This document shows, in pieces, positions 8,512 to 55,546 of a DNA stretch of 64,000 nt. The notes below the pieces were generated by a model that ran no database searches, was not told the origin of the DNA, and saw only the letters and a program-made list of their open reading frames with translations. The first letter of the stretch is position 1, and each line of letters opens with the position of its first letter. The translations under genes were made by a program, and so were the position numbers. Source of the stretch: a virus; IMG/VR virus record IMGVR_UViG_3300022902_000007. One strand, 5' to 3'.

Positions 8512-8783
8512 GTCTCGTCCTTTTCTGCCATCAAGAGACCAATCGCGTTGTTGAGGTGGCATGGGTCCATTTGACTATGGATGTAGTAGAAGTTGTTGCG
8601 ACTGGCGACGACTTCAGAGGTTTCCGTGCAGTATTGCACGAAGTCTTTTGGAGCTCCGTAACCGAGGTCTCTGAGGCACCCGTTGACCATGAAGTGTATC
8701 ATGCGGAGTAGCATTTCATCCTCAGTGAGACGATGAAGAATGAGTCCGCCGTCCACGGAGATAGGCTCGTAGGTAGTCTTCAT
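8508..8783 (-). CDS. hypothetical protein
   Basis: ORF directly downstream of the tRNA. Confidence 0.55.
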   Translation of the reverse strand: MKTTYEPISVDGGLILHRLTEDEMLLRMIHFMVNGCLRDLGYGAPKDFVQYCTETSEVVASRNNFYYIHSQMDPCHLNNAIGLLMAEKDET

Positions 8784-8807
8784 GTGGGTCCCTGGCTTGT
8801 TGAGATG

Positions 8808-8895
8808 TGGTGAGGGCGGTAGGATTCGAACCTACGGTGGACTTTCGTCGTCAGCTTAAAAGGCTGGTCCTCTCGGCCAACTGAGGGACGCCCCA
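8808..8895 (-). tRNA. tRNA with UUU (Lys) anticodon and long variable arm
   Basis: T arm GTAGG-TTCGAAT-CCTAC, anticodon arm CAGC-CTTTTAA-GCTG, variable hairpin GAC-GAAA-GTC, acceptor GGGGCG/CGCCCT, A73-CCA. Confidence 0.85.
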
Positions 8896-8942
8896 TATTT
8901 CTTCATAATACAAGGCCCCCTGCGGGGGCCCTGCTTCAAGCT

Positions 8943-9233
8943 CTACTTGTACGTGTAGAACGCCTGGCTGGTCTCCAGGACCACCATGTTGCGGTTGATT
9001 GCTCGGCTGAGCACGTCCTGACGCTGGTCGTCCACGTTCCTTCCACCGCCCTTGACGGCAGAACCCATCTGCTTGAGGCCACAGAGCCTGATGTAGTAGT
9101 TGGCGCTGATGGGGCAGTCGCGGTTCTTGATGGCGAGCCAACCCAAGCCCCCGACCTTCTTGGTGAAGCGGGAGTCGAAGTTGGTGTTGTAGCTGGTGAT
9201 GCTGAGCACGGAAACCTCCTGTGCAGTGTTCAT
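8943..9233 (-). CDS. hypothetical protein (start MNTAQE)
   Basis: GC3-biased ORF flanked by hairpins. Confidence 0.5.
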   Translation of the reverse strand: MNTAQEVSVLSITSYNTNFDSRFTKKVGGLGWLAIKNRDCPISANYYIRLCGLKQMGSAVKGGGRNVDDQRQDVLSRAINRNMVVLETSQAFYTYK

Positions 9234-9265
9234 AAGGGAGGGCCCCTTGAAGGGGCCCCATCTGA

Positions 9266-9562
9266 CTATCTCACGTGCATTGGAGGCTCGTAGGCCCACA
9301 GAGACCTTCCAGTGTGCTCGTACCAACAGAACTCCAGGTTGCGGAGGTACTCGTCGTCATCGATATCAGCATTGATGACGCAGGCTTCTCCGGAGATGTA
9401 GGCAGCAGAGCCGTTTGGAGCCGCCGTGGAAGATGCGGAGTACCAGAACCTCGGCATGTAGTCGGCAGGACGCATACCAGAAGCGTACAACTGATAGCCA
9501 ACCATGCCAAGGCCCGTGATGAGGAAGAACACGATGAGGATGTTTTCCAGGAAGCGATTCAT
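9266..9562 (-). CDS. membrane-anchored hypothetical protein (start MNRFLE)
   Basis: GAGG upstream, N-terminal TM helix; the longer ORF crosses a terminator. Confidence 0.6.
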   Translation of the reverse strand: MNRFLENILIVFFLITGLGMVGYQLYASGMRPADYMPRFWYSASSTAAPNGSAAYISGEACVINADIDDDEYLRNLEFCWYEHTGRSLWAYEPPMHVR

Positions 9563-9590
9563 TGCAGACCTCTTGTGGAAGTGATTCATT

Positions 9591-9615
9591 GAAAAGGGAG
9601 CCCAAAAGGGCTCCC
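9591..9615 (-). terminator. intrinsic terminator
   Basis: GGGAGCCC-TTTT-GGGCTCCC followed by TTTTC on the minus strand. Confidence 0.6.
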
Positions 9616-9987
9616 TACCAGAAGCATTCTCCCTGGAATCAGGGTTACTGGCTCCTGGATTTCTCTTCAACAATGACCACAGATTGTTAGGCAGTAGAAC
9701 CCTCTTTGTGCAAGTATTCGTGATGTCATTCACGATAGCTGGTTGGGTGCAATCACGTTCCTGACTCTCAACCTATTGGTGTAGGCTTTCTCACACATTG
9801 ACCTTTGACTTGGCTGTATGAGTTGTCGTTCCAGAGCACCAACTCTGGTAATGGTCATAGAGTAGCCCGGTCTCTGACCGGGCCGCCCTTCCAAATTCTT
9901 TCTTTACTCGCCCACAAAAACAATCCCCTCAACCAATCAAACAAGAGACAGGAGGCAGTCTCTTCAGAAAGGATGAGAGGAATGAGT

Positions 9988-10230
9988 CTATGCAGGTTCT
10001 TCTGCCATCTTCTGTGCACGTTCCCATGCCATCTTGAAGGCATCGTAAGAGCCATGACTGATGACCCCGATACCCACCAAGAACAGCACTGGTACCAGAA
10101 CCATCCATGCGAAGACCTGCAGCAACTCCAGGAGTGGAGTCCACTTGAAGGTGATGAAGAGGATGGCAGCTCCGACCAGGAACTTGCCCCACCAGGGGCA
10201 CTGATTGTACAGCTCTTTGAGCTTTTTCAT
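9988..10230 (-). CDS. small membrane protein (start MKKLKE)
   Basis: AAGGAG upstream of ATG; two hydrophobic helices. Confidence 0.65.
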   Translation of the reverse strand: MKKLKELYNQCPWWGKFLVGAAILFITFKWTPLLELLQVFAWMVLVPVLFLVGIGVISHGSYDAFKMAWERAQKMAEEPA

Positions 10231-10359
10231 GGTTTCTCCTTGGAGATTGTTCATAGAGGAGGGCAGGCTCTGCCTGCCAGCAGTGGCACGGCCTTTGTTC
10301 GAGTTTCTCCGATATCGCGGAGTCATAGGTGGGGCTGTGTGTAGGGGTGTGAGCGGAGG

Positions 10360-10396
10360 CCATTAAAAAAGAAGGAGGCCCCCGAAGGGGCCTCCT
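10360..10396 (-). terminator. cUUCGg terminator-like hairpin with conserved TTCTTTTTTAATGG tail (element copy 1)
   Basis: GGAGGCCCC-TTCG-GGGGCCTCC-TTCTTTTTTAATGG. Confidence 0.8.
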
Positions 10397-10410
10397 CGCT
10401 CAGTCTCTGT

Positions 10411-13400
10411 CTACCTCGTGTGCTTGTTGATGGCAGTACACAAGCGACCGGCACCGTTCATCATTGCCTTGCTCGGCTTGGCCCGAGCACGACGCACTGC
10501 GATGGCACTCACCAGACTCTTGCAGTCCGGGCACTCCAGGAACTGGACACCAGTCTCCTCGTAGTGCTTCATGGGCTCTGGGAGGCTGACACTCGTCCCC
10601 TCGATTCTGCCATAGGGCCCGTACATCAGGCTGCTGAGCACCTCGTGGATGTCCTTGAACACAGGCTTACCGTGCTCGTCGGTCTCCTTGAGGAGCATGT
10701 CTGCCATGCTCTCGACAGCCTTGACTCGTTCAGGAGTCATGTAGTCACACCCAGCGTTGACCTGGATGATTCCCAGCTTGTCGAGGACGGGGGATCCTTC
10801 CCAGGCCACTGCTCGGAAGGCACGCTTGATGTGACGCTCGGACAGCTCCTTGTGGGAGCCATACTCACGACTCAGGCTCATCTCTGTTGACCAGATGGTC
10901 AGCAGCTCTTCCCAGGTGAGGTTCTTGAGGCAGTTCCTCAGCTCGACTCGGCAGGCCTCGATGTCACCGTTCCTCTGGTCAGGTTCGAGAGCAGAGCGCA
11001 TGATGCGTCCCACATTCTCACCATACGTCCTGAGGCCAGACTTCTCGTACAGGCCAGGCTCACCATTGACACCACGCTGGTAGGTAGACTCGGGCAGGGC
11101 CATCCTGGGCTCTTCCTTCAGGCCCGCGTACAACAGCACTTCCAGATTCACCGAGAGCTGCTCCGGCATGTTGTCCTTCTTCCAGTCCTGGAACATACCC
11201 CAAGCTTCCCAGGAGCAGTAGTGCACGAGGTTCTGGTTCTCGCCAGTGTACTCCGTACCTACCCAGCCATTGGGATTGATGCGCTTGGAGCGCTCCTGCC
11301 AGGTGTTGGTGTGCTTCCAGGACATGCCCACTGGCCTGCCCTTGTCGTCAGTACCCACGACGTAGCCCAGCTCAGCAGCGGTCCTCTTGACCCACCAGCT
11401 GAACTTGCCAGGGATGAACCCGCCATACTCATCGACATACCAGCTCTCTGGGCCCATGACCATGGAGCGCTTGGTCGAGCCATCCTCTGCAGTAGAATCG
11501 TACTTCCAGCAGCAGCAGGTCTTGCCATTACGTTCGTACTCTTCCACCACTCTCCAGTTGGCCCCGATCATTGCCTTGTCCATGTTGGTGAACAGTGGGT
11601 TGCGCTTGAGCTGATCGATGAACTCCTGGTTGAGGCACATTGCTGCCATCATTGGCATGGTCTCATCCAGAGCCAGGAACATTGCGCAGGCATTCGTCGC
11701 CATGCCCACTGGTCCCTGTCCGTCCACGGCGATCAGCTTGACTCCATCCCAGCTCTTGGTCGGGATCTTGTCCAGGTGACCGTCCGTGTTCTTCTTGGGC
11801 TCGATGAGGTACACATCTTCAGGCTTGCCCAGCAGCGGGATGCGAGACTCGTAGAACCTGATCATTTCTGGATCCCAGGAGCACGCCACTCCATCACCGT
11901 CGTCGTCACCCATGAGCAGATGCTCCATGTCCATTGGGTTCATGAAGATGGTGTTGGACGGGACGATGTAGTCGGTCCTGCCTTTGATCAGCATGTGGCT
12001 GAAGGCCTCCACGATCTCTGCTTCCATCAAGCAGGCTGGCTGCAGGCCGGGAGCACGGGTGATGGCAAGTCTGTCTCCCACCCTGTACCTCCGCTTGCCA
12101 TTGATCTTCATGGCTGCCATGACGACCTCACCGGGCTCCAGGCTGTTGTCCATCACGACCACGGGAGCCTCGCACATGATGCCTGCACCCTGCTGGATGT
12201 GGTAGAGCTGACGCCCCAGTTCATCCATCAGTTGTTCTGACACCTGAGGTACGGTCTTGGGATCGACACCCAGCTTGTCGCAGATGGCACAGACCATGCC
12301 GAGGTTCTCGTCGCGCTTCATGACGATTTCCATGAGCTCATCCATGGTGAGCTTCTCGAAAGCCTCCTCCACCCTGGTCTTGATGAACGCCTGGTTCTCC
12401 GGGGAGTTCTCAGCGAACTGCAGGGCTTGGAAGTTCAGCTTCTGCTGGCGTGGCTTGGTCCAGGTCTGCATGATGCCCAGATGCAGCTTGATATTGGCCG
12501 TGAGACCGTTGGCATGCAGCTTCTTGGCGTCAGCCTTCCTGGTTCCCTTGATCTGCAGTGGGTCGATCCAGATGGCAGGCTTTCCGCTCTTGTCGACGCA
12601 GCGCTCATCACACACCAGGATGCCCTTCACGAAGACCTCACGGCCCAGGTTGAAGGCTCGGATCTGCACGACGTTCCGCTTGTGACGCGGGATGCCCAGC
12701 GCTTCCCAGATGTCGTGTTCCGGATGGATGCAGCCACAGCCGTCACTGCCAGCAGCCTCTCCCATCCAGTTCTCACGAGTCTTGATGATGCAGTCGTAGT
12801 CATCGATGTGCACCATGGGTCCACACAAACCGCTGACGTAGGCACGGAAGTCTACGGCCACCGGGAAGATGTCGGACAGCACCCTGACGACCTCCTTCTT
12901 GATGGCCCACTTGCCCTTGACCAGGATGTAGCCAGCCTTGTGAACGGGAGACCAGAAGTCAGCCGGGATGTCAGGCTGAGAGCCATCCTCTTCCAGCGGC
13001 AGGTTGTTCTGGAACCGGATCACGGGCAGGTCGTACTTCTTGCCCCAGTAGTGGGTGATGAGACCCACGGGGCCGTTGCTCACCACGTAGCCAGCCTTGA
13101 GACGCTCGGTGTTCCCTTTGGCGGGCTTGTAGATATTCACGATCGGCATGCTCCTCCAGCCCTCTGCCTTGGCCCTGGTACGAGCCACACTCTTCAGGCT
13201 AGTGGTGAGGTCGTCGTATTCCTGCAGCTCATCCTCGGGGCTCTTCCCCAGCATCAGTTCCACGAACAGGTCAGCGTACTCACTGATCTTGGTCTCGACG
13301 GTGACGAGCTTGCTCGCCAGGTACTGGGCAGCCCAGCAGGTGGTGTTGTCCATTTGTGCCTCCTTGGCGTTGTTGGACGGGTTGTCGTTGAGGTAGCTCT

Positions 13401-13674
13401 TGATGTAGATTTCGTTAGGCCTTGGACCCAGAGGGGCCATGCCCATGACTGTCTCGAAGTCGCCATCGCCCCGCAGATGGTAGTAGTAGGACCACTCGTC
13501 ACAGGCTCGACAGTGGACATGACCATCTTCGCAAGCGGTATGCACCAGGAACCCATCTCCGTGGGTCGGGCAGTTTTCACTGTGGTCGATGTCGTTGAGT
13601 TCGCAGCACTTACAGTGGCTTCCCCCATAGGGGTTGCCCATGATGCAGGTGTTGGCAGTGTCGGTGATAGCCAT
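10411..13674 (-). CDS. single-chain two-barrel RNA polymerase, YonO/QDE-1(RdRP)-like
   Basis: Ordered motifs SDGCGCI, VVQIRA..VKGIL, AITRAPGL and MGDDDGD (DxDGD at 11893-11907), matching cellular RdRP and SPbeta YonO patterns. Confidence 0.85.
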   Translation of the reverse strand: MAITDTANTCIMGNPYGGSHCKCCELNDIDHSENCPTHGDGFLVHTACEDGHVHCRACDEWSYYYHLRGDGDFETVMGMAPLGPRPNEIYIKSYLNDNPSNNAKEAQMDNTTCWAAQYLASKLVTVETKISEYADLFVELMLGKSPEDELQEYDDLTTSLKSVARTRAKAEGWRSMPIVNIYKPAKGNTERLKAGYVVSNGPVGLITHYWGKKYDLPVIRFQNNLPLEEDGSQPDIPADFWSPVHKAGYILVKGKWAIKKEVVRVLSDIFPVAVDFRAYVSGLCGPMVHIDDYDCIIKTRENWMGEAAGSDGCGCIHPEHDIWEALGIPRHKRNVVQIRAFNLGREVFVKGILVCDERCVDKSGKPAIWIDPLQIKGTRKADAKKLHANGLTANIKLHLGIMQTWTKPRQQKLNFQALQFAENSPENQAFIKTRVEEAFEKLTMDELMEIVMKRDENLGMVCAICDKLGVDPKTVPQVSEQLMDELGRQLYHIQQGAGIMCEAPVVVMDNSLEPGEVVMAAMKINGKRRYRVGDRLAITRAPGLQPACLMEAEIVEAFSHMLIKGRTDYIVPSNTIFMNPMDMEHLLMGDDDGDGVACSWDPEMIRFYESRIPLLGKPEDVYLIEPKKNTDGHLDKIPTKSWDGVKLIAVDGQGPVGMATNACAMFLALDETMPMMAAMCLNQEFIDQLKRNPLFTNMDKAMIGANWRVVEEYERNGKTCCCWKYDSTAEDGSTKRSMVMGPESWYVDEYGGFIPGKFSWWVKRTAAELGYVVGTDDKGRPVGMSWKHTNTWQERSKRINPNGWVGTEYTGENQNLVHYCSWEAWGMFQDWKKDNMPEQLSVNLEVLLYAGLKEEPRMALPESTYQRGVNGEPGLYEKSGLRTYGENVGRIMRSALEPDQRNGDIEACRVELRNCLKNLTWEELLTIWSTEMSLSREYGSHKELSERHIKRAFRAVAWEGSPVLDKLGIIQVNAGCDYMTPERVKAVESMADMLLKETDEHGKPVFKDIHEVLSSLMYGPYGRIEGTSVSLPEPMKHYEETGVQFLECPDCKSLVSAIAVRRARAKPSKAMMNGAGRLCTAINKHTR

Positions 13675-13735
13675 GATTGCCTCCTAAGCATATGGCTTGT
13701 TGATGGTCGTCTCCATACAGAGTGTAGGGATTGGA

Positions 13736-13775
13736 CCATTAAAAAAGAAGGAGCCCGCCCCCGAAGGGGCGGGCT
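13736..13775 (-). terminator. cUUCGg hairpin element copy 2, upstream of RNAP gene
   Basis: AGCCCGCCCC-TTCG-GGGGCGGGCT-CCTTCTTTTTTAATGG. Confidence 0.8.
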
Positions 13776-13789
13776 ATCATGAACACGAG

Positions 13790-15109
13790 CTACTCAGGCA
13801 GCATGTTCACCAGCAGTGCAGCCAGTTGACGCATCTCTGCTGACACGGCCTTGTTGCAGGGTCCTTGGAGTTGATGGATCTTGCCTCTCGTGGCATGGAG
13901 GCTCGCCTTCTCACCATCTGCTCTCCTCAGATGCCAGAGGGTCTCCATCCTCCCATCGTACATGAGATTGTTGATGCAGTTGTTCCAGTAGCCACCGATG
14001 CAATGATGCATCTCTTGGCCTTCCTCCCAGCTCCGAAGTTCTGAGCCGATGAGCTCACATCCTTCAGGCCACTGCATCTGCTTCATGGCTTCGATCTTGG
14101 CTTCATACTTGGTCCGAGCTTCTGCCAGTTTCTTGTTTCTGTTGTCTGCGATCTCTTTGTACCGCTGTTGTCGGATCTCTACGACTCTGTTGTTCTCTTC
14201 AACCAGTCTGTCATGGATTGCCATGAGCTGAGTCCTGGTGAGTCGTTGCTGTGTCCACTCTGGCCTCTCACAGAGGCCCCGCCTGCGATGCATCCGGACA
14301 GTGTCTCTGTACTCCTGCAGCAGCCCCTTCCGCCCATAGTACTGGAGATGGGGGTGGCTCCCGACCAAGGCTGGATCACGCGAGACCATCTGGATATAGA
14401 GAGTCAGGCTGTCTTGACTCATGGGCTCTCTGACCCGAAGGCCAATCGCAGCATTCCTTCCATGTGCGCTCATCTTCAACAAGTTGTTCCTGATCTGGGC
14501 AGGAGTGCCAGGCTTGAGGCGGCGAAGGATGGCCTTGTCCTTCAGCCCCTTCACCATCAGCTTGGCGCAATGCTTGCGGCTCCTCCATCCGCTATTCAAG
14601 ACGAGTCTGAGGGTATTGCCAGTGTTTGTAATCCACTGATATGCTGGGTGCCTACCGTTGGCCAGCAGCCAGTCGAGTCCAGCCCGACCCTGGAAGTTGA
14701 GAACGACAATCGCAGACTTGGAGATAATTGTGAACCCTTTCTCCTTCAGCTCCTCCAGGAGCTTCTTGGTCTTGCTGTTCTCCAACGCCTGCTGGTAGAG
14801 CCAGGCGTAGTGCCTGTAGAGGGCTGCGTTGGGGTCTCGCATCACGGCGCCCCAGGACTTGAACCCGAGGGTCTTGGTGACGATATGGATGGGGTTCGTG
14901 ACCTCAGACTCGTCTTGGCGCAGTTCCTGTGCACCGAGGTAGTCGAACATGTCCAAAGGATTCCAGTGCATCTTGTTCTGCATGAAGTGCCAGCGTCCCT
15001 GGTAGTCTCCGTCGAAGATGATCCAGGTCTTCCTGGTCTTGCAGTTGCTGTGGAAGCAGAAGCCTCCACCGTTGGTGCAGATGTCAGAGAGGGTGCGAGT
15101 GAATGACAT
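13790..15109 (-). CDS. PcfJ-like domain protein (start MSFTRT)
   Basis: C-terminal EEGQEMHHCIGGY...QLQGPCNK motif; AGGAGG upstream of 15109. Confidence 0.75.
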   Translation of the reverse strand: MSFTRTLSDICTNGGGFCFHSNCKTRKTWIIFDGDYQGRWHFMQNKMHWNPLDMFDYLGAQELRQDESEVTNPIHIVTKTLGFKSWGAVMRDPNAALYRHYAWLYQQALENSKTKKLLEELKEKGFTIISKSAIVVLNFQGRAGLDWLLANGRHPAYQWITNTGNTLRLVLNSGWRSRKHCAKLMVKGLKDKAILRRLKPGTPAQIRNNLLKMSAHGRNAAIGLRVREPMSQDSLTLYIQMVSRDPALVGSHPHLQYYGRKGLLQEYRDTVRMHRRRGLCERPEWTQQRLTRTQLMAIHDRLVEENNRVVEIRQQRYKEIADNRNKKLAEARTKYEAKIEAMKQMQWPEGCELIGSELRSWEEGQEMHHCIGGYWNNCINNLMYDGRMETLWHLRRADGEKASLHATRGKIHQLQGPCNKAVSAEMRQLAALLVNMLPE

Positions 15110-15147
15110 GATAGTACCTCCTACATGTCTTGTGTATGGCAGTATTG

Positions 15148-15184
15148 CCACTAAAAAAGAAGGCGGGGCCCCGAAGGGCCCCTC
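15148..15184 (-). terminator. cUUCGg hairpin element copy 3
   Basis: GGGGCCC-TTCG-GGGCCCC-GCCTTCTTTTTTAGTGG. Confidence 0.8.
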
Positions 15185-15188
15185 AGTC

Positions 15189-15365
15189 TCAGTCGCTTCT
15201 CTTGGCATGGTATGTCTCATGCCTTCTCATGTCTGTCAGGTATGGCTTCAGCAGTGCCTTCATGGAGCGCTGCTTCCACCTTGTCCCACAGACTTCACAC
15301 TCGTAGTACAGCCACTTCCTGCCAGTCTTCACCAGCTTGAAGTGACCACTACACCCGCAGGTCAT
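15189..15365 (-). CDS. small zinc-ribbon protein (58 aa, not in ORF track)
   Basis: Manual translation MTCGCSGHFK...YECEVCGTRW...; ATGA overlap with the upstream gene. Confidence 0.6.
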   Translation of the reverse strand: MTCGCSGHFKLVKTGRKWLYYECEVCGTRWKQRSMKALLKPYLTDMRRHETYHAKRSD

Positions 15366-15706
15366 GACTGCCAGACTTCTAGGATCTCATCGATCTCTTC
15401 CTGACTGAGGCCTTGCTCTTCGCAGTAGATCTGAACCAAATCGGTAGCCAGTCTGAAGTCGAGGAAGAAGTAGTCATCTGACATGTGCGCATATTGCTCA
15501 ACCTCGTAGGTTTCGCAATAGGTTCCGTCAGGCCACACGAACAGTCCGTCGTTTGTAGGCTCCGGCGTGTAGGCTTCTTTGACGAAGATCTCCTTGGCCC
15601 TCTCGTACCACTTGTGACACAGGTGACTGAACCACGTGCCGAGGCTGACACCGAGGAGGGCACCGAAGATGCCGAGGATGATCGCGATGATGATGGGAAG
15701 GTCCAT
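15362..15706 (-). CDS. membrane-anchored hypothetical protein
   Basis: AAGGAG upstream; N-terminal TM helix. Confidence 0.7.
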   Translation of the reverse strand: MDLPIIIAIILGIFGALLGVSLGTWFSHLCHKWYERAKEIFVKEAYTPEPTNDGLFVWPDGTYCETYEVEQYAHMSDDYFFLDFRLATDLVQIYCEEQGLSQEEIDEILEVWQS

Positions 15707-15735: not shown

Positions 15736-15773
15736 CCGCTAAAAAAGAAGAAGCGGGCCCCGAAGGGCCCGCT
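15736..15773 (-). terminator. cUUCGg hairpin element copy 4
   Basis: AGCGGGCCC-TTCG-GGGCCCGCT-TCTTCTTTTTTAGCGG. Confidence 0.8.
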
Positions 15774-15788
15774 CAACTCTCTGTCGCT

Positions 15789-16479: not shown

Positions 16480-17168
16480 AGCTGTCTCTCTGCTGTGGGT
16501 GCTGCACCTATCCCAGCTTGGTCTCTCCTGCGGTTTGATCCACTGGATAACCGGGTGCTTCTGTAGTATGAAAGAGCGGTATGTTTAGGCTCGTCCTCAC
16601 GAGTGCTCTATATAGCCGCTATGCCATAGAGCCGAACGCTCCCCATGGAGCAACCCTTCGATTCCGGGCCAGAACCCTGGTAGCCCCAGGTGGCAGCTCC
16701 TGTCCTGTGGAGCCAAGGTCTAAGTGTTGGTTACTACCCGTTCACACACGGGGTCACATGGAGTGATGGTGTCTACTGTTCTCCTACTCGCTCTCACTCA
16801 GAGCCAGCCTGTATTGCTACTCTTGGACACAGACGTCCTCACTTGGGTCTTGCCAAGACAACGTACCTACTACACGGCCCTTTTCTGATAGCAAGCCATC
16901 AGGCCCTTACTGCAGGCGGGCCTACAGACCATGGTTGGGTACAGCACTACCTCTCTACCTATCCCTGGTAGACTCAGGGGATAGAGTGTATTGGCCTTAC
17001 CATCAGCCAATACATGGGGGTTGGACCCACGATAGTCCCTGCACATACGAGTATATGCAGAGGTATGCTCACCACTATGGGCTTGCATACGCATACAGGT
17101 CAGTTTCGTGTCATGACCAGGACTGCGAGGGCTTTCGCTGTGTCATACCATGTGGTATGTGTTGCCAC
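16480..17168 (-). ncRNA. candidate large structured non-coding RNA (~700 nt)
   Basis: No credible ORF; many stem-loops; GNRA loops (GAAA, GCAA) read on the minus strand; boundaries approximate. Confidence 0.55.
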
Positions 17169-17205
17169 TAAATAAAAAGGAGAACCCCTCCGAAGAGGGG
17201 TTCTC
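17165..17205 (-). terminator. cUUCGg hairpin element copy 5
   Basis: GAGAACCCCTC-TTCG-GAGGGGTTCTC-CTTTTTATTTAGTGG. Confidence 0.8.
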
Positions 17206-49200: not shown

Positions 49201-50370
49201 ACACGTCAGTCGATGTATCAAAAAAGGGCTTCTGGACAAACAACTGATTCTGAAAATCGGATGATGGACCTGGTTGATTCTCGTCTTGAGAAGATTCAGG
49301 CTTATGATACATTCCAATCCGTACATGACAATGCGATTCAAGTACCTGGGTTATCAAGGGTTAGCCAGGGGATGTGGGCTACTGCCCAGAGAGCTTTCAG
49401 AAAGACTGTCGCTCCAGTGGAGTATCTCACTCCGTTCCGTCCTGTTCAGAAACTTCTGTACGACAGAGACAAGATGGAGGCCTATGAGTGGGAAAGACTA
49501 TACGGCGGCCCCAATGCTTTCTGGGATGCACCTCAGCGTGACTTCCTCAGACCTGCAATGTATTCTGCGTTGCACAATTTAGGCTGGGATGGTAAGCCAC
49601 TATGGAGACAAGAAGTAGATAGAGACAAAGAGTATTTTGACAAGTTGGAATTCGTCAAATGGATGAGAGCTGCAGAGTCGGCCCCGACAGGCCAAGAGCG
49701 GCGGCGAGCGCTTCTCAATGCTCAGAAGACGAAGCATGGTGTGAATCCGCAAGGCAGTCCCCTTTCTATATATGCTTCTCTTCCAGAGTCGGAAAAGAGA
49801 TTCTTTGACGCTTTTACTTTCGCGCCTGAAAAAGACCGTGAGCGTATCAAGGAAATGGTTCCTGCTGATCAGGTTCATCTCTATGAAGCCATCTGGAACA
49901 GAGTTGATTCTGGAGATCGGTCTTTGCATCCGGCATCTCCGACCTCTATTGACGAGGCATATCTCAATGCTCGGTTCCATGATTTACAAGGCTACTTCCA
50001 GCAGAATCCATTGCCGCCAGAAGACTGGTCGGGTTGGAAGAGCAATGTCGAGCTTGATGATATCCAGCTTAGATATGTAGAGAGAATCGGTCGAGATATC
50101 CACGATTACGAGATGTGGGACAGACAGAGTCGGCAGCTCACGAGAAAGCCATACCTGGAAGGCTCCGAAGACTTTTTGTTCGAGGGCCACCCTCTAACTC
50201 GTGACTCCATTGCTTCTCAAATCCATGACATGGGTAGACGTCAATCTGGCCCAGCTCCACAGCTGTCTGTTCATTCAGTTCCCGGCAGCTTGTTTGATAC
50301 ACAGGCCAGGTTCTACCATGACGACAATAGAGAAGACGTGATAGGGAGGTTGTTGAATGCCCTCGAATAA
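46243..50370 (+). CDS. tape-measure-position / ejected virion protein
   Basis: 1375 aa after the chaperones; several Gly/Ala hydrophobic helices. Confidence 0.55.
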   Translation: MSPKRWDSQENVPWNPPSHRAGKLAVAAALTGGAGYAAMNYRFSSGTAMDYAHAVIRHTGNVSPYSILNTFRGAQWLSPWLSTEAQGLSSAKDLKLSGSLPGAPGARYHHWAEEMIGDDASKEWIRKVAGSKRFQQAGLDVQPFEMLYSRGGKDTTGAGSLWARVRGGDAWQKLSGSVSLFEATPVDPKIAATRGIQQEAMNPALTGIWDAMGMSEIWGKKSYGKFSRAFRTVTEEGKPGGMSKYVPIPALLGKDIDGWQGVHRRFSTYVGGPLAQGMGRMNRLLEQTMDQLPILRNVNYAFEQQFKTGMGVQPGPASKMFARFGTRAAAVGAIGVGVAQSDWIRRHYGVGGHLAATGLTTTAITYAAHKMFNRTPLTFGVAAASAVGQLILPGFREGLVPGAITTASNLSIGKSMVGSLTFMNTYRRTLEGFLPGASDWKTSVLAGLGVAGFSYMGGSAALIKKHGYRGILPASLEKFIGVEGADFGLHADPPPTIRSLYRDEVHSIAQKRLGTEYGSIMSERGWVSFKNRKIDLALQRQGQSSGTWRGLMDELDLAWETASTKYGQFLSGELEGYPNLNNSLRSRIAKINGEFQGRTASATSKRFLAKSGTKIWHSFLGMNPAVASLREDLGVLGAKSHLGRLGLLFGAGALGWSMVTGGLLGSMEDPSELADIYSGRQHVTVKEGRAWEAGGAPFEGKKPLYSRPHNFALLMSRARQKAVWGDDEDEISPVKKFLLKNFSYELEKRTYWDRPHVVSSAAFEGIPVIGGLLASTIGQIVKPPKLMHISEWARQGPNGEIEFAHKPEYGNISYEMGGLTPGAPHSPYSSPFQAGYAAYQYNELAGLFGWALNTATKAVTGSDMFATQRPVLASAGAISSAQKAFWDLELAGALGLSEGIRRFLPRDRSEVEEYNPLINNTPSWLPDRFAYGDPYRSVDRGHVRLPGPGYSALHPELKGMDPENYPRIYRYMILADVANQSREFKQTRQSMYQKRASGQTTDSENRMMDLVDSRLEKIQAYDTFQSVHDNAIQVPGLSRVSQGMWATAQRAFRKTVAPVEYLTPFRPVQKLLYDRDKMEAYEWERLYGGPNAFWDAPQRDFLRPAMYSALHNLGWDGKPLWRQEVDRDKEYFDKLEFVKWMRAAESAPTGQERRRALLNAQKTKHGVNPQGSPLSIYASLPESEKRFFDAFTFAPEKDRERIKEMVPADQVHLYEAIWNRVDSGDRSLHPASPTSIDEAYLNARFHDLQGYFQQNPLPPEDWSGWKSNVELDDIQLRYVERIGRDIHDYEMWDRQSRQLTRKPYLEGSEDFLFEGHPLTRDSIASQIHDMGRRQSGPAPQLSVHSVPGSLFDTQARFYHDDNREDVIGRLLNALE

Positions 50371-53300
50371 CTTTGCATACCCGAGAGACACTCAGTCAGA
50401 TGTCTACACAGCCGCTTCATTTTTGAAGAGGGGTGCCAGCATTGTGCCTGCTGCAGTAGGTATCGGTATTGGTGTGAGAGCAGTACTGAGCAATACTCCA
50501 GAAGCCCTCCAGGGGCTTCCTACCAATCACTTAGGAGATGCTGGAGCTCATGTCGGCGGTGCTGTCAGAAAGATGCATCAGTACAAGACGGACAGAGGAA
50601 ACAAAATAGCCGACGAGATTATCGGAAATCTTAGAGAAGGTCTGAGAGACAAGGGGAATCTGAGGCAAGCTCTGCAGTCTTCCCACGAAGAACTAAATGC
50701 GAAGATATCAGCCATCGTTGCAGCCCTGGATGAGCCCAGTATTGCTGGGGACGGCGGAGAGCTTTTACAAAGGAGGAAGGAAGAGCTTCTGTCACTCATG
50801 AGGGAAGAGGGTGATGCAATAGATCAGAAGGCAGCCCAAATGATTGAGGACACTGTCAAGGATATCTATTCAACTGCAACGGCAGATGGTAAGAGAAGAT
50901 TTGGTGAGCATCTGACAAAGTACGAACGACTCCGTAGTCAGCTCGCTCCTCCAGATTTTGTTCACAAGTCTGGTCAATCGTTCTCGACAATAAGTGATAC
51001 AGCCAGTCTCAGCAGCAGAGCCCGTGGTCAGCTCGATTCACTGTCTGGTATGCTCAGAGGCCAAGGTCGTATTGACGTAGTCAAGCACAGTTCTGGTTCG
51101 ACTTACGCTCGTGTATACGCCTCGGATGCTGCGAATGCTCGACATATCATGGACTATCCTCTTCAGTATAGGACCATGGGTGGGGTTCCAATTATTCATA
51201 CAGGTGAGGGGCTTACGACTCCTCGTGCTGCAGATCTGCTTTACACTTCTGCAAGAAATGTGCAAGAAGCCTTTGGCGGCACAGCCAGGGGGGCAACTGT
51301 CACCCGTCAAATGGTACAGGAGAACTTACTGGGTACTGGAAAAGCCTATGATTACAGAGGCTTGCTCAGAGGAGAACTGAGAAGTCGCTTAGGAGCGGCA
51401 AGGGGGAATTTGTCAGCTGTTGAGAACATGAATGAGTTCTCTCGTCAGTATCTGGCCAACATCGACAAGGCTGCTTTCGGCCGAGGAGCTTTTGCCCAAC
51501 ACCTACAAGCCCAGACCGTAAGGACTCATTCCAGAATGACAATCACTGGCTATGAGCAGGTCTCCAAGTCTACAAGGCAGTCTCAAAGGGCAATGCTGAT
51601 GGCAGCCTCTCCTGAAGCTGAGTTGGCTCCTCATGGCTTTGGAGGAGCACGACCTTTCTTCGATCCTGCCGTTGGTCATGAGTTCACTGTGGACCCTACT
51701 GGTAGAATGTCTGCGCAGGTTGGTATCAGGCAATACAAAGGCACTGGAGCAGCGATTACTCGTATCCGGAATCCCTTCCAGACTCGTGCGATGTATCCAG
51801 CCACCATGCGTATCGATCAGGCTCTGAAGAGAACTGAGTCATTCGTCCCCGGAAACAATGTTCCTTCCACTCTTGGTAGCTCTGGTACTTATAGGCATTT
51901 CGGGCAAAACATCGAATGGGCTGATGACATGGTTCGCGGAGGGCTCAACAAGGTTGCTGTGCTGACTCCGGCGAACATGGCGATAGGTCTCGGAGAAGGA
52001 GAGTTCTACACTGGCGGACGATTCGTCGTCGAGTCTCCGATCACGAAGACTGTCTTTGATCCAGGTTCCATGAAGACCCCATCATCGAAGCTCCTCAATA
52101 GACTTGTCAGCGAGGGACAGATCAGCCTTACAAGCGGAGCAGATATCAATCAGTTCTTTGGCGAGACAAAGGGGTTTCTTGGGCTTGGCGGTTCTGGAGA
52201 AACCTATCTCACAAGGAAGCAGGGCCTAATTGGATTGAATCTGACTGCTACGCCGACACAGATTGGAGACAGAAAGGTGTGGGAGATTGTTGGTAGTGGA
52301 CGCTATCTCGAAGACCCAAAGATGTTTGGGATGCATGCGAAGGCTACCTCTCGGCGTATTGGCGCAGCAGGCTTCGGCCGTGTAAGCGGAATGGTTGGTG
52401 CTGATATACTTGGAGAGACAGGTGCACTCGGACTGGGCCGAAGTGATCTCATTGTCGGCCCTGGCAAGATGTTCAAGAAGGGGGCAGGAGGGCTCATTGA
52501 TCAGATGGCCGGAGCCATGGGACTAATGAAGAAGTTCGCTGGTCCCCAAGCTGCTTATCAGGCAGCCACCCAGGGCATGTATGATCCAGCTACTCAGATG
52601 TTCAACAAGTCTACTCTCAATGCGCTGGCTTCTGGCAACACGGGTGTGGTCCTGATGAAGACTGCTGAAAACGTTGCGAGACAGATGGCTCCTATGCAGG
52701 GGCAGATATCACCGAATGTGATGGGCCGAGTATTTGGGAGTCTTCATAGCTACGGTGGTAAGCATGGTGTCAGTCAAGACGCCCTGATGGGTATGCTTGG
52801 GCAACACTTCTCTGCTGATTACATGGCCAAGCTTGGTCCTGCTGTTCAGCAAGGTATCGGCATAACTCCTACGACTCTGTTCTCTGGGCCGACTCTCGGT
52901 TCTTGGGGCTCCACCAGAGCCTCCATGGAGCCTCGCTTTCTCGGCTTGATGCACAAGACGCTAACTGACAGCTTAGGTATGGACAGAAGCTCTGCCAATG
53001 ACATCCTCGCTGGATTCATGGCAAGGAAACCAGGTGCTGCAGATGCATTGAATGCTGCGAAATCTCTCACCAGAATGCAGGCTACCATCTCTGGTGCAAG
53101 ATCGATGCTGGATGAAGACTTGCTTCAGTCCATGAGGAGGGTCGGAGCTAAAGACTTTGCAATGGCTGGCGGCTCAGATGCGGCCATGGAGAAATTCTTG
53201 AGAAGTGTTGGCAGTGATTTTGTACTGGATTTCAGTGGCAATGAGTTTGTTGAGCGAGCCGCTCGCAAAGCTTTCCACAATAATACTTCGTTATTCATTC

Positions 53301-55546
53301 CTGGATCCGAAGCACTCAATCAGATGAACAAGGCCCTCATTAAAGGCCCCTCTGGCAATGTAGAAATCAAACCAGAATTCATCAGGAGAATGGAACGGCT
53401 CAGTGGTGTAGTCAGAGACCTCATGGGTCTCCAGGCAGGAGCCTCTGCGGATCAGATCTCCAGTCATGTCAGCAATCTCACTGGCTGGGCTCATGGAATG
53501 GATCGACTATACGGACAGACTGTTCACAACCTCGGACGTGGGAAGCTTGCTGGCTCGGCTTATGTCAGAGCACAGTCTCTCGTGTTTGGTGAGAATGGCT
53601 CTGCTGACTTCAACATGGAACAGCTGAAGAGAATGCAACAGCAATACACTGGCGCCAAGGGCCATGCTGTCTTCGTTGACTCTCAAGCGTTTCTGTCCAA
53701 GATGAGAGACTCCATATCAGCAGCTGAGAAGGAACTGCTTGGTGCTGGTGAGTTCACTGGGGGAAGAGCCAGAGGCGGAGCTGTCCGTAAGGCTGGCCTT
53801 GAGTATCGTAACTTCTTCCTCGGCTCAGAGAGAGGGATGAGAATGGGCTCAATGAGTCTCATTCAGCGGCACCCGACGTTGACGAATCCTCACATTGCTC
53901 CAACTCAAGTCTATCGTGTCGCTTCCGAGACTGGAACGACTGATGACATATTCAGGAAGTTCGTGCAGACCAGTGCCGGCAAGAAGGCCCTCGCTGAAGT
54001 ACAAGGCAAGGCTGGACAGGGGATCTCTCTTGGAAGTTTCAGTGACATGGCGAAAGTCTGGCAGACGAGGAATAGAGGAGCACGAATCAAGATCAACAAG
54101 TTCTTCCAGTCCATGGCTTCACACGTTACTGATTTCATGACCGAAGAAGGCGGTGGTAAGGTATTCTTCCCGGAGTTTGACGTCAACATTCACTATGCCG
54201 GCGGGAAACTCGAAGGTGTCAACTTCTCTCCTTGGGCTGCAGCTGGCGGTGACCACGATGCAGACATGGCAGGAATGATCTCTGTATTTTCCAAGAAAGG
54301 CCGGGAGCTCACAGGCTCTCCAGCAGCAAGAGAAAAACTTGCTCGTTCTGTCCACAGACAGACCGCCGAGGGCCTGGTCATGAGGAGTCAGATTAGTGAG
54401 GGTATTGCTCGATATGCTGGGGGACTAAGCTCTACTGCAGCCCTTTCGCCATGGGAGCAAGGGCTTGAGTCTGTCTTGAAAGAACAGGCTGGTAAGGATA
54501 TCGGTAAACTTTCTACGACTCTGGGCGCTGTTCGGCAAGGGATCTGGGCTGAAGCCAAGCCAGGCCAAGAACTCATGGCAAGACAAGCAGTCGCGTTTCT
54601 TGGTGGCGCCGAGGAAGCTACACAGATTGCCTCCAAGCACTTGAGTCGTGCTCTTGATGTTGGTAGCGTCTTGAAGGCCACACTCGATCACGCAATGCAA
54701 ACTGGAGAGATTGACAAGTTTGAAAGTCTTGTCAGGAACGTGCTACTCAAAGGCAGTCCTATTCTCGGAGAAGGAATTAGTATTGAAGGTGTCACTGCTG
54801 GGAAGGCTGGCGATATCTCTGCTCGCATGGCAGCAACAGCTGAAAGGAATCTGTCTGGCCAAGCCATTGGGTTCGGCGAAGAGTCCATTGATTTGATTCG
54901 TCGTGCTGCTGTTAGAGCTCAGCAAGAGGGATACAAGGCATCTGTCACGGCGAGGGGTATCGAGTCAGTGGTCGGTAGGCATTCTCCGCAGGCTCAAGTT
55001 GCTGCTGACGCTTTGAGAAATGACTGGAGGCTCATGGCAGCAATGGGTCCGCAGGCGGGGATAGAAGCTGTTGGAGAATTCGCGAGGCAGGTAGGGAATA
55101 GGATCAGTACCTTCAGTAGAGCCATGGACAAGCGTTTCCTCGGGCCTGCTATAGTTGGTATTGGTGCTGCAGTGGGTCTTGGGGCAATGGTCGGGAGTCC
55201 AGGTTACTCTGCTGAGCCATTGATTGCCCCGGGAGAGGTGGTCACTCCGAGAGTCAAAGATGCCGTTGCAGCTGGTAGCCTATTTGATCAAAGTGTCAAG
55301 GCTCCGATGGCAGAGAACTTTGCTTCAAGTGATCGGCTCAACATTACGGATCGTCCAATTAATCCAGGTACTGCATACTTTGAAAGACGAAACGCTTATC
55401 AAATCAGAGGTGGATTGAGGAATCGTTCTGCAATTGGTGAAGTCAGTAATTTCATTAGTGGTATCGGTGGCTCTGCTTCGATTAGAATCAATGATACTCG
55501 CAGGCCATTGACTCCGAATTACATTGACCGAATCACTTCAGAGTAA
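50357..55546 (+). CDS. putative virion RNA polymerase, single chain with beta-like and beta'-like barrel motifs
   Basis: DPKMFGMHAKA and SDLIVGP (beta DK..RHGNKG and vDiilNP-like); GRGKLAGSAY, IQRHPTL and SPWAAAGGDHDADMA (beta' GKR..SGR, NRxPTL and NADFDGD-like), in the expected order. Confidence 0.7.
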   Translation: MPSNNFAYPRDTQSDVYTAASFLKRGASIVPAAVGIGIGVRAVLSNTPEALQGLPTNHLGDAGAHVGGAVRKMHQYKTDRGNKIADEIIGNLREGLRDKGNLRQALQSSHEELNAKISAIVAALDEPSIAGDGGELLQRRKEELLSLMREEGDAIDQKAAQMIEDTVKDIYSTATADGKRRFGEHLTKYERLRSQLAPPDFVHKSGQSFSTISDTASLSSRARGQLDSLSGMLRGQGRIDVVKHSSGSTYARVYASDAANARHIMDYPLQYRTMGGVPIIHTGEGLTTPRAADLLYTSARNVQEAFGGTARGATVTRQMVQENLLGTGKAYDYRGLLRGELRSRLGAARGNLSAVENMNEFSRQYLANIDKAAFGRGAFAQHLQAQTVRTHSRMTITGYEQVSKSTRQSQRAMLMAASPEAELAPHGFGGARPFFDPAVGHEFTVDPTGRMSAQVGIRQYKGTGAAITRIRNPFQTRAMYPATMRIDQALKRTESFVPGNNVPSTLGSSGTYRHFGQNIEWADDMVRGGLNKVAVLTPANMAIGLGEGEFYTGGRFVVESPITKTVFDPGSMKTPSSKLLNRLVSEGQISLTSGADINQFFGETKGFLGLGGSGETYLTRKQGLIGLNLTATPTQIGDRKVWEIVGSGRYLEDPKMFGMHAKATSRRIGAAGFGRVSGMVGADILGETGALGLGRSDLIVGPGKMFKKGAGGLIDQMAGAMGLMKKFAGPQAAYQAATQGMYDPATQMFNKSTLNALASGNTGVVLMKTAENVARQMAPMQGQISPNVMGRVFGSLHSYGGKHGVSQDALMGMLGQHFSADYMAKLGPAVQQGIGITPTTLFSGPTLGSWGSTRASMEPRFLGLMHKTLTDSLGMDRSSANDILAGFMARKPGAADALNAAKSLTRMQATISGARSMLDEDLLQSMRRVGAKDFAMAGGSDAAMEKFLRSVGSDFVLDFSGNEFVERAARKAFHNNTSLFIPGSEALNQMNKALIKGPSGNVEIKPEFIRRMERLSGVVRDLMGLQAGASADQISSHVSNLTGWAHGMDRLYGQTVHNLGRGKLAGSAYVRAQSLVFGENGSADFNMEQLKRMQQQYTGAKGHAVFVDSQAFLSKMRDSISAAEKELLGAGEFTGGRARGGAVRKAGLEYRNFFLGSERGMRMGSMSLIQRHPTLTNPHIAPTQVYRVASETGTTDDIFRKFVQTSAGKKALAEVQGKAGQGISLGSFSDMAKVWQTRNRGARIKINKFFQSMASHVTDFMTEEGGGKVFFPEFDVNIHYAGGKLEGVNFSPWAAAGGDHDADMAGMISVFSKKGRELTGSPAAREKLARSVHRQTAEGLVMRSQISEGIARYAGGLSSTAALSPWEQGLESVLKEQAGKDIGKLSTTLGAVRQGIWAEAKPGQELMARQAVAFLGGAEEATQIASKHLSRALDVGSVLKATLDHAMQTGEIDKFESLVRNVLLKGSPILGEGISIEGVTAGKAGDISARMAATAERNLSGQAIGFGEESIDLIRRAAVRAQQEGYKASVTARGIESVVGRHSPQAQVAADALRNDWRLMAAMGPQAGIEAVGEFARQVGNRISTFSRAMDKRFLGPAIVGIGAAVGLGAMVGSPGYSAEPLIAPGEVVTPRVKDAVAAGSLFDQSVKAPMAENFASSDRLNITDRPINPGTAYFERRNAYQIRGGLRNRSAIGEVSNFISGIGGSASIRINDTRRPLTPNYIDRITSE

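What the first reader, a model, noticed from the sequence alone, without database searches (positions are those of the whole stretch)
10411..13674. YonO/QDE-1-like RNA polymerase as the largest early gene
Seen: SDGCGCI, QIR..KG, TRAP and MGDDDGD, the ordered signature of eukaryotic RNAi RdRPs and phage YonO-like enzymes. The gene is its own unit between two conserved hairpin elements. Known: SPbeta YonO is a DNA-dependent RNAP. Inference: a middle/late RNAP, although RNA-templated activity (for example on the nearby ncRNA) is not excluded.
Basis: partly seen in the sequence, partly recalled or inferred. Interest (0 to 1): 0.75.

Follow-up and report, generated by a model that had tools for sequence, protein, structure and literature searches.

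The report
Phage QDE-1-like single-chain RNA polymerase
An uncultured marine phage encodes a one-piece RNA polymerase of the ancient "two-barrel" type, most like the polymerases eukaryotes use for RNA silencing; it is probably the second enzyme of a two-polymerase relay that lets the phage transcribe its early genes without the host enzyme, a strategy already known from Thermus phage P23-45.

Summary
ORF 10411-13674 (-) encodes 1087 aa carrying every quoted motif in order, with a strong ribosome-binding site, between two UUCG-loop hairpin elements.

The RNA polymerase reading passes its own refutation test.
- Pfam RdRP (PF05183) scores 45.6 bits against a cut-off of 23.8.
- All inferred active-site residues are nearly invariant across 116 relatives.

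It is not YonO-like by sequence.

The family has about 150 clusters, is metagenome-only and unnamed, and is absent from cultured phages.

Four of four complete related phage genomes also carry the 1729-aa tail-module protein with a DFDGD-type loop. In relatives the polymerase gene again sits behind hairpin/T-run/(A/T)ATGG elements. This is the same cassette layout as the pre-early region of P23-45.

Most likely role: a DNA-dependent, non-virion early or middle polymerase. The "middle/late" label and RNA templating are untested.

It is a new member of a known kind. This scan has already noted similar polymerases in other phages, including an apparently related 161-kb phage.

The parts
10411..13674 (-). 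Complete gene for a 1087-aa single-chain two-barrel RNA polymerase (P0001)
   Evidence: ORF and translation. Pfam PF05183 scores 45.6 bits against a cut-off of 23.8. AF2 model pLDDT 83.4, pTM 0.81. Foldseek and VIA top hits are QDE-1 and RDR2.
13345..13674 (-). N-terminal extension of about 110 aa, rich in Cys and His and specific to this lineage; residues up to about 150 are poorly modelled; possible zinc ribbon
   Evidence: It is not aligned in homologues and has pLDDT below 50. Only sub-threshold hits were found: T7 primase zinc-binding domain, E 0.48, and Zn_ribbon_6, E 0.37.
12439..12810 (-). First double-psi beta-barrel (DPBB1/DPBB-B, aa about 289-412) with D311, Q337-x-R339, K350-G351, K376-G377 and K380
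   Evidence: Beta strands 289-412 in the model. Residue conservation. The spacing D..26..QxR..KG..26..KG mirrors QDE-1 D709, Q736, R738, K743, K767 described in PMC9508822; this mapping is inferred.
12187..12438 (-). Helical connector between the two barrels (aa about 413-496)
   Evidence: Helices 415-496 in the model. The QDE-1 and gp66 connector is described in 10.1101/2020.03.07.982082.
11875..12186 (-). Second, catalytic double-psi beta-barrel (DPBB2/DPBB-A, aa about 497-600) with R540-x-P542
   Evidence: Model strands 500-599. HHalign to P23-45 gp64 covers residues 511-712 at probability 85%. R540 and P542 are invariant.
11893..11907 (-). Metal-binding loop D590-D-D592-G-D594, followed by WDPEMI as in QDE-1 (GDYDGD...WDPDIV)
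   Evidence: The three Asp are each 112/112 conserved. The profile alignment to QDE-1 5fsw shows the shared DGD...DP..V..F stretch.
11602..11709 (-). Long helix pair (aa 656-691) with invariant Q683, D687, K690; candidate bridge-helix region
   Evidence: Model helices 656-668 and 672-687. The motif QEAIDxAKR aligns to gp62/gp64 IQVAVDRQKR. The functional assignment is inferred.
10522..10749 (-). C-terminal region holding the invariant C976, H1037, C1048, C1051; candidate zinc site
   Evidence: Conservation is 108-111 of 109-111 sequences. Metal binding is inferred.
13680..13685 (-). Shine-Dalgarno AGGAGG, 5 nt before the ATG
   Evidence: Sequence.
13736..13775 (-). Upstream element: 10-bp GC stem with CUUCGG loop, then CTTCTTTTTTAATGG. 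It ends the preceding unit (PcfJ-like gene) and is the candidate restart or promoter for the polymerase gene.
10360..10397 (-). Downstream element of the same kind; candidate terminator of the polymerase unit and the last of the five elements
15148..15182 (-). Third element of the same family
15736..15774 (-). Fourth element of the same family
17165..17205 (-). Fifth element, at the head of the minus-strand arm, with no minus-strand gene before it in this window
50357..55546 (+). 1729-aa tail-module protein (DHDAD at 1299; DFDGD or DMDGD in relatives); candidate virion RNA polymerase and partner of the relay
Evidence: Motif alignment. Homologues occur in 4/4 complete related genomes and 2 partial ones.

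Best explanation
The gene encodes an active, single-chain, two-barrel RNA polymerase. It belongs to the clade that joins phage and plasmid single-subunit enzymes with the eukaryotic RNAi polymerases. It most likely acts as a DNA-dependent, non-virion polymerase of the phage.

Proposed course of events:
- A polymerase that is present at infection reads the minus-strand arm from about 17.2 kb. This is most likely the tail-module 1729-aa protein, or else the host enzyme.
- That arm is read as short cassettes, each bounded by a UUCG hairpin plus CTTCTTTTTTA(A/G)TGG.
- One cassette is the polymerase gene.
- The new enzyme then transcribes the following early and middle genes from promoters of its own, which are not yet identified.
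- The structural arm is probably left to host RNA polymerase.

Shown: the fold, the intact active-site residues, the family, the cassette layout, and co-occurrence with the tail-module protein. Inferred: DNA template, timing, which enzyme reads which signal, and absence from the virion.
For: - Pfam RdRP is above threshold.
- HHalign to P23-45 gp64 gives probability 85%.
- D311, Q337, K350, K376, R540, P542, D590, D592 and D594 are invariant or nearly so in 116 homologues. Their order and spacing match the QDE-1 residues that bind metal B, the product strand and the NTP.
- The gene lies in the non-structural arm, 3.5-7 kb from the divergence point with the terminase/portal arm. That arrangement is kept in 11 related loci.
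- All 4 complete related genomes carry both proteins.
- Hairpin/T-run/(A/T)ATGG elements recur on the polymerase strand in relatives whose polymerases are only 23-30% identical. One lies just upstream of the polymerase ORF in at least L003, L008, L009, L011 and L012.
- The P23-45 pre-early region, read by its virion polymerase, has the same layout: a hairpin-T terminator overlapping an AT-rich promoter, including before its nvRNAP gene 64.
- No sigma-70-like site lies before the gene.
- TGnTAYAAT sites lie in three intergenic gaps of the structural arm.
Against: - There is no expression, activity or virion data. No RNA run holds the sequence.
- No promoter for this enzyme was identified.
- The tail-module protein has a non-canonical DHDAD loop in this phage. 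It shows no sequence-level similarity to gp96 or to this polymerase, and I could not fold it.
- The hairpin plus T-run elements look like ordinary intrinsic terminators for host polymerase. The arm could therefore be host-transcribed with read-through.
- The TGnTAYAAT excess is weak: 6 matches against 2.2 expected, and 3 of 100 shuffles reach it.
- The closest characterised relatives by sequence are enzymes that also copy RNA.
Confidence: 0.6

Rival explanations
1. The gene is expressed early by host RNA polymerase. The enzyme is the phage's middle/late polymerase and transcribes the structural arm, as YonO does for SPbeta late genes.
For: YonO is a DNA-dependent polymerase for late genes (PMC5467207, listed). 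The flanking elements resemble host-type intrinsic terminators. The structural arm has few intergenic gaps and could be one long operon.
Against: No sigma-70-like promoter lies upstream of the gene or at the head of the arm. There is no family-level similarity to YonO. Extended -10-like sites sit in three gaps of the structural arm. The co-occurring tail-module protein with a DFDGD-type loop supplies a polymerase at infection, as in P23-45.
Confidence: 0.2
2. The enzyme works mainly on RNA templates. It might copy the roughly 700-nt non-coding transcript at 16480-17168 or phage mRNAs into double-stranded or antisense RNA, for regulation or counter-defence.
For: The best sequence and fold matches are cellular RdRPs. 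The Q-x-R motif, described as typical of RNAi RdRPs (PMC9508822), is present. QDE-1 uses both templates.
Against: The phage two-barrel enzymes for which activity data were read here were shown to work on DNA templates: P23-45 gp64 and gp96 and YonO (abstract). PDB lists crAss gp66 as DNA-dependent. One paper reports that QDE-1-type enzymes transcribe single-stranded DNA more robustly than RNA in vitro. The QVR sequence also aligns in the DNA-dependent gp96, in a non-significant alignment. The non-coding region matches no Rfam family and shows no link to the gene beyond proximity. No defence or anti-defence family matched.
Confidence: 0.08
3. The enzyme is a replication primase-like polymerase. 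It would make RNA primers or R-loops on single-stranded phage DNA rather than mRNAs.
For: QDE-1-type enzymes start de novo on single-stranded DNA. The N-terminal Cys/His segment weakly resembles the T7 primase zinc-binding domain (E 0.48).
Against: The zinc-domain match is not significant, and the segment is absent from relatives. The family-wide link is to the transcription cassette layout and the tail-module protein, not to replication genes.
Confidence: 0.05

Closest known systems
Eukaryotic cellular RdRPs: Neurospora/Thielavia QDE-1 and plant RDR2 (Pfam PF05183; PDB 2J7N, 7Y7S, 5FSW, 7W82, 7RQS)
   Different: It is encoded by a dsDNA phage, not a eukaryote. Sequence identity is only 12-15%. 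No Pfam RdRP_head or RdRP_helical match was found. It has its own Cys/His N-terminus and an invariant C-H-C-C cluster at the C-terminus. There is no RNAi context. Only 8 of 45 family members reach PF05183 at E 0.01, so the family lies at the edge of that profile.
Thermus phage P23-45 gp64 / P74-26 gp62 non-virion RNA polymerase (PDB 8F72, 8F5M; PMC10770324)
   Different: This enzyme is nearly twice as long (1087 against 616 aa). It has extra N- and C-terminal regions that align with QDE-1 and RDR2 instead. gp64 does not hit PF05183. The host and phage type differ: a marine myovirus against a Thermus siphovirus. The partner here is a separate 1729-aa gene beside a 2811-aa protein with tape-measure/peptidase-type PHROG matches, not a fusion.
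Bacillus prophage SPbeta YonO (PMC5467207)
   Same: Single-chain phage polymerase with a DxDGD loop, and a stand-alone gene.
   Different: There is no detectable family-level similarity: HHalign aligns 29 columns around the loop at probability 1%. YonO has no PF05183 hit. tblastn against 50,697 phage records, which include the SPbeta record NC_001884, found nothing.
crAss-like phage phi14:2 gp66 virion RNA polymerase (PDB 6VR4)
   Same: Two-barrel fold of the QDE-1-like clade.
   Different: Only a weak match (Foldseek E 3e-3, TM 0.13-0.23). gp66 is a 2180-aa virion-packaged protein with a DFDID loop and a cleft-blocking domain. The present gene is in the early arm.

Membership tests
Two-barrel (double-psi beta-barrel) RNA polymerase superfamily | Two DPBB domains forming one active site | tested here: met
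   The AF2 model (pLDDT 83.4) has beta-rich regions at 289-412 and 497-600. It aligns to QDE-1, RDR2, gp64 and gp96, and its catalytic barrel aligns to Rpb1.
Two-barrel (double-psi beta-barrel) RNA polymerase superfamily | Metal-binding DxDxD (DxDGD) loop in the catalytic barrel | tested here: met
   D590-D-D592-G-D594. Each Asp is 112/112 conserved in the family.
Two-barrel (double-psi beta-barrel) RNA polymerase superfamily | Conserved basic residues of the other barrel that hold the RNA 3' end and the NTP | tested here: met
   K350 (112/112), K376 (113/113) and K380 (107/113). Equivalence to QDE-1 K743 and K767 is inferred from order and spacing.
Two-barrel (double-psi beta-barrel) RNA polymerase superfamily | Bridge helix and trigger loop after the catalytic barrel | tested here: inconclusive
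   Helices 656-687 carry invariant Q683, D687 and K690 and align with gp62/gp64. No residue-level structural superposition was available.
Two-barrel (double-psi beta-barrel) RNA polymerase superfamily | Template-dependent RNA synthesis | not testable with these tools
   This needs the purified protein.
Cellular RdRP family (Pfam PF05183; QDE-1, RDR1/2/6) | Score at or above the Pfam gathering threshold | tested here: met
   45.6 bits against 23.8, E 5.4e-12, residues 290-609 on profile positions 150-452 of 582. Only 8 of 45 relatives match at E 0.01.
Cellular RdRP family (Pfam PF05183; QDE-1, RDR1/2/6) | Q-x-R in the first barrel in place of the Pol II lysine | tested here: met
   Q337-I-R339. 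Q is 109/111; R is 76/112, with T in 29. The feature is described in PMC9508822.
Cellular RdRP family (Pfam PF05183; QDE-1, RDR1/2/6) | RdRP head and helical C-terminal domains (PF26253, PF26252) | tested here: inconclusive
   No Pfam hit at E up to 1. However, the structural alignments to RDR2 and QDE-1 run on to model residue about 972.
Cellular RdRP family (Pfam PF05183; QDE-1, RDR1/2/6) | RNA-templated synthesis within an RNA-silencing pathway | not testable with these tools
   No assay was possible. The context is a dsDNA phage early arm, with no Dicer- or Argonaute-type neighbour among the proteins scanned.
YonO family (SPbeta) | Detectable sequence homology to YonO beyond the catalytic loop | tested here: not met
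   HHalign of the 60-sequence profile against YonO gives probability 1.2% over 29 columns. There was no tblastn hit in phage records.
P23-45-type non-virion RNA polymerase (gp64/gp62) | Sequence or fold homology to gp64 | tested here: inconclusive
P23-45-type non-virion RNA polymerase (gp64/gp62) | Gene lies in an early cassette region of hairpin terminators overlapping AT-rich promoters | tested here: met
   Five elements in the window. Similar elements occur in relatives. The P23-45 sites are in Supplementary Data 1.
P23-45-type non-virion RNA polymerase (gp64/gp62) | Co-occurs with a tail-module (virion) two-barrel polymerase | tested here: inconclusive
   The 1729-aa protein family co-occurs in 4/4 complete genomes. 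It has DFDGD or DMDGD in relatives. Its polymerase fold was not tested here, and there is no HHalign signal to gp96.
P23-45-type non-virion RNA polymerase (gp64/gp62) | Absent from virions; transcribes early and some middle genes | not testable with these tools
   This needs virion proteomics and ChIP or start-site mapping.

The most novel reading that the evidence does not exclude
A widespread group of uncultured marine myoviruses (132-192 kb) runs a host-independent two-polymerase relay. The relay would use a deeply conserved cis-signal, a GC hairpin, a T-run and then (A/T)ATGG. The second enzyme belongs to one of the phage lineages nearest by sequence to eukaryotic RNAi RdRPs: it hits Pfam RdRP directly and shares QxR and DGD...WDP. 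If so, it is a tractable representative of the proposed phage ancestor of those enzymes. It may also keep their dual DNA and RNA template use.
Probability: 0.3. Interest if true: 0.65.

Novelty: new member of a known kind. Interest (0 to 1): 0.5.

Why it matters
Phage-encoded two-barrel polymerases are the proposed source of the eukaryotic RNAi RdRPs (10.1101/2020.03.07.982082). Only a few have been studied: YonO, crAss gp66, and P23-45 gp64 and gp96.

This family is unnamed and absent from cultured phages. It is abundant in seawater: near-identical DNA is held in 20 runs from 17 studies. It is detectable by the eukaryotic RdRP profile itself.

The family gives a compact enzyme of about 950-1100 aa with a confident model. 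That enzyme could be used to test template choice (DNA or RNA) and promoter recognition. It would also extend the P23-45 virion/non-virion relay from one Thermus siphovirus group to marine myoviruses.

It does not open a new category.

Tried and rejected
**Searches that found nothing**
- PHROGs, NCBIfam and PADLOC gave no match for the protein.
- phmmer and family-profile searches against PDB sequences gave only sub-threshold hits: gp62 at E 0.18-0.5 and QDE-1 at E about 1.
- tblastn and megablast against 50,697 phage records found nothing.
- The word-indexed 5.8-billion protein search found only the protein itself.
- The single-protein scan of IMG/VR found nothing.
- The scan of 185,579 species genomes found only two marine MAG contigs, so there is no host clue.
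- No listed holder of the DNA is an RNA run.
- Rfam found no family in 16300-17900.

**Tools or inputs that failed**
- The 60-sequence alignment was too diverse for pattern scanning.
- Single-sequence AlphaFold was useless, pLDDT 32.
- Protein comparison failed on the large alignment. I used hhalign in a script instead.
- No whole genome is held for this window.

**Comparisons that gave no signal**
- HHalign of the tail-module family against this family and against gp96 showed no signal.

**Ideas tested and not supported**
- A second hairpin class downstream of the gene, followed by GGCT-N5-7-ATGA, is not above chance: 8 matches against 4.3 expected.
- A fixed 'TACAC' box after the elements was rejected because its distance varies from 7 to 16 nt (my reading).
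- An N-terminal zinc ribbon is not significant.
Full report
**1. Observation**

The minus-strand ORF 10411-13674 is open for 1087 codons. Its ATG follows AGGAGG with a 5-nt spacer.

All quoted motifs are present in order:
- SDGCGCI at 310-316
- QIR at 337-339
- KG at 350-351
- TRAP at 539-542
- MGDDDGD at 588-594

It is the largest ORF of the minus-strand arm, which runs from the window start to about 17.2 kb. From about 17.2 kb the plus-strand arm begins, with terminase (23295-25568), portal (28857-30788), capsid (34030-35325) and tail sheath (39096-41405), followed by three giant proteins.

The gene is bracketed by two members of a five-member element family on the minus strand. The stem-loops lie at 17205-17180, 15774-15751, 15182-15165, 13775-13752 and 10397-10372.
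- Each has a 7-11 bp GC-rich stem whose sequence differs between copies while pairing is kept.
- Each has a CUUCGG loop and is followed by CTTCTTTTTTA(A/G)TGG or a near variant.
- Each folds at -22 to -27 kcal/mol, z -2.4 to -3.7.

**2. What the protein is**

Sequence and fold evidence:
- Pfam RdRP (PF05183) matches residues 290-609 at 45.6 bits against a cut-off of 23.8, E 5.4e-12.
- A full HMMER pass over 1.84 billion representatives found 151 relatives, 75 of them below 1e-30 and the best at 38% identity. Where a source could be seen, all came from metagenomes and none had a functional name.
- With a 60-sequence alignment, AlphaFold gave a confident model: pLDDT 83.4, pTM 0.81. Only the first 150 or so residues are unmodelled.
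- Foldseek against PDB ranks QDE-1 first (E 5e-13). Next are RDR2 (6.5e-12), the P23-45-type non-virion polymerase (1.6e-7), P23-45 gp96 (2.5e-4) and crAss-like gp66 (3e-3), followed by cellular and poxvirus large subunits.

The stated refutation test, "no RdRP/YonO profile or structure match", therefore fails, and the polymerase reading stands.

**3. Active site**

Conservation in 116 homologues:
- D311: 111/112
- Q337: 109/111
- K350: 112/112
- K376: 113/113
- R540: 114/115
- P542: 115/115
- D590, D592, D594: each 112/112
- Q683: 112/113; D687: 113/113; K690: 112/113

In QDE-1, D1007, D1009 and D1011 bind the metals, and D709 helps hold metal B. Q736, R738, K743 and K767 hold the product strand and the NTP. 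Q-x-R replaces a Pol II lysine (PMC9508822).

The order and spacing here (D311, then Q337-x-R339, K350 and K376, with D590-x-D-x-D in the second barrel) fit that pattern. This mapping is an inference from order and spacing, not from a superposition.

The profile alignment to QDE-1 shows that similarity continues past the loop: family GDDDGD...DP..V.LF against QDE-1 GDYDGDMAWVCWDPDIVENF. This protein reads GDDDGDGVACSWDPEMIRFY.

In a low-probability HHalign alignment, P23-45 gp96 shows QVR and KG at the positions aligned to QIR and KG. If that alignment is right, Q-x-R is not peculiar to RNAi enzymes.

Nothing suggests an inactivated enzyme.

**4. Which family**

It is not YonO-like in the family sense.
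- HHalign of the family profile against SPbeta YonO aligns only 29 columns at the loop, probability 1%.
- YonO has no PF05183 hit.

It is related to P23-45 gp64. HHalign gives probability 85% across the catalytic barrel and the following helix. However, the eukaryotic enzymes align over more of the chain, model residues 170-973 against 200-850.

The family sits at the edge of PF05183. Only 8 of 45 members match at E 0.01, and this protein is the best of them.

Phage proteins with PF05183-type similarity have been reported before, in Faecalibacterium and actinobacteriophages (10.1101/842583). BFVD holds phage proteins named "RNA dependent RNA polymerase" that match the model. The kind is therefore known; this family and its setting are not described in what I could search.

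**5. Setting**

- The DNA is held near-identically by 20 seawater or marine metagenome runs from 17 studies.
- IMG/VR holds 13 related loci on contigs of 32-192 kb.
- In 11 of them the polymerase gene lies 5-7 kb from, and divergent to, homologues of the 264-aa protein (17857-18651) and the 1054-aa SNase-domain protein (19107-22271). The genes in between are not conserved.
- The 1729-aa tail-module protein (50357-55546) has homologues in all four complete related records and in two partial ones.
- Where this phage has DHDAD, the relatives have DFDGD or DMDGD.
I could not repeat that, and HHalign gives no signal to gp96 or to the present family.

**6. The elements and the likely mechanism**

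In relatives whose polymerases are only 23-30% identical, the same kind of element recurs on the polymerase strand. It is a GC hairpin, a T-rich run, then (A/T)ATGG or ACGG.
- L008 has six, ending TTTTCTTTCTATGG or a close variant; L009 has five.
- One lies just upstream of the polymerase ORF in L003, L008, L009, L011 and L012. One lies further upstream in L010 and L013.

In P23-45 the virion polymerase gp96 reads the pre-early region as short units. In these units a hairpin-T terminator overlaps the next AT-rich promoter (ttTATTCCTTTA), and one such unit is the gp64 gene. gp64 then transcribes early and some middle genes, and host polymerase transcribes the late ones.

The present arm has the same layout.
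- The first element stands at the head of the arm with no minus-strand gene before it in this window, so it cannot be only a terminator there.
- No sigma-70-like site precedes the polymerase gene.
- Three intergenic gaps of the structural arm carry TGnTAYAAT, at 17554, 35336 and 43175. The statistic is weak: 6 matches against 2.2 expected.

I therefore read the gene as the non-virion second polymerase of a relay. It would be expressed from a cassette that is read by an enzyme present at infection, and would act on DNA.

The template, the timing and the assignment of signals to enzymes are inferences.

**7. Rivals**

- RNA-templated function is not excluded by sequence, but nothing in the context supports it, at about 0.08.
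- A primase-like role rests only on non-significant N-terminal similarity, at about 0.05.

**8. Verdict**

It is a new member of a known kind. This scan has already reported similar QDE-1-like phage polymerases in many genomes. One is a 936-residue enzyme of a 161-kb phage that was read as the second enzyme of a P23-45-like relay. I found the same pairing independently here.

Noticed in passing
window 13345-13674 (-), aa 1-110 of the polymerase: A Cys/His-rich N-terminal extension, with a CxCC...C..H...H..C...HxHC..C pattern. It is absent from relatives. It has a sub-threshold resemblance to the T7 primase zinc-binding domain (...DGHxxCxxCxxW; E 0.48). It could be a lineage-specific DNA-recognition module.
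   Followed up: partly
window 10522-10749 (-), aa 976-1051: C976, H1037, C1048 and C1051 are invariant across the whole family. This is a likely structural zinc site. I did not see an equivalent site described in the QDE-1 and gp64 text passages I read.
   Followed up: partly
window 7765-7839 (-) and 8808-8895 (-): tRNA-Arg(TCT) and an 88-nt tRNA-Lys(TTT) call lie inside the early arm, downstream of the polymerase gene. The Lys call overlaps the end of ORF 8851-9261.
   Followed up: no
window 4745-4763, 5665-5690, 6215-6235, 6853-6874, 7240-7262, 7856-7880, 9855-9885 (-): Downstream of the last T-run element, the intergenic hairpins change character: GC stems with GAAA-type or longer loops and no T-run. 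A shared GGCT-N5-7-ATGA tail on three of them is not above chance (8 against 4.3 expected). They could mark a switch of transcription machinery or be RNA-stability hairpins.
   Followed up: partly
window 8000-16000: G+C is 0.535-0.58 across the polymerase gene and its neighbours, against 0.45-0.53 elsewhere in the window.
   Followed up: no
window 13790-15220 (-): The gene just upstream encodes a 476-aa protein with a PcfJ-like domain (PF14284, E 2.6e-7), a family known from conjugative plasmids. It is not conserved next to the polymerase in relatives by tblastn.
   Followed up: partly
window 17857-18651 (+) and 19107-22271 (+): A 264-aa protein with no family match and a 1054-aa protein with a staphylococcal-nuclease domain are the best conserved neighbours of the polymerase across relatives (37-52% and 28-39% identity). 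They always lie divergent to it, at the head of the packaging arm.
   Followed up: partly
window 1-176, 1086-1765, 4967-5370, 6021-6196: Several early-arm ORFs are built from 69-nt (23-codon) tandem repeats that are shared between at least three loci.
   Followed up: no
window 17554, 35336, 43175 (+): TGnTAYAAT extended -10-like sequences lie in three of the few intergenic gaps of the structural arm. This recalls, from my memory of earlier P23-45 literature, the extended -10 promoters used by host polymerase for P23-45 middle and late genes.
   Followed up: partly
window 50357-55546 (+), aa 1299-1303: The tail-module protein has DHDAD where three relatives have DFDGD or DMDGD. The second and fourth positions vary while all three Asp are kept.
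   Followed up: partly
L008 4204-9300, L009 4761-9290, L012 5124-9450, L003 8371-13300: Related phages carry arrays of hairpin/T-run/(A/T)ATGG elements on the polymerase strand, up to six in 5 kb. The signal is conserved far beyond the level of protein identity.
   Followed up: partly
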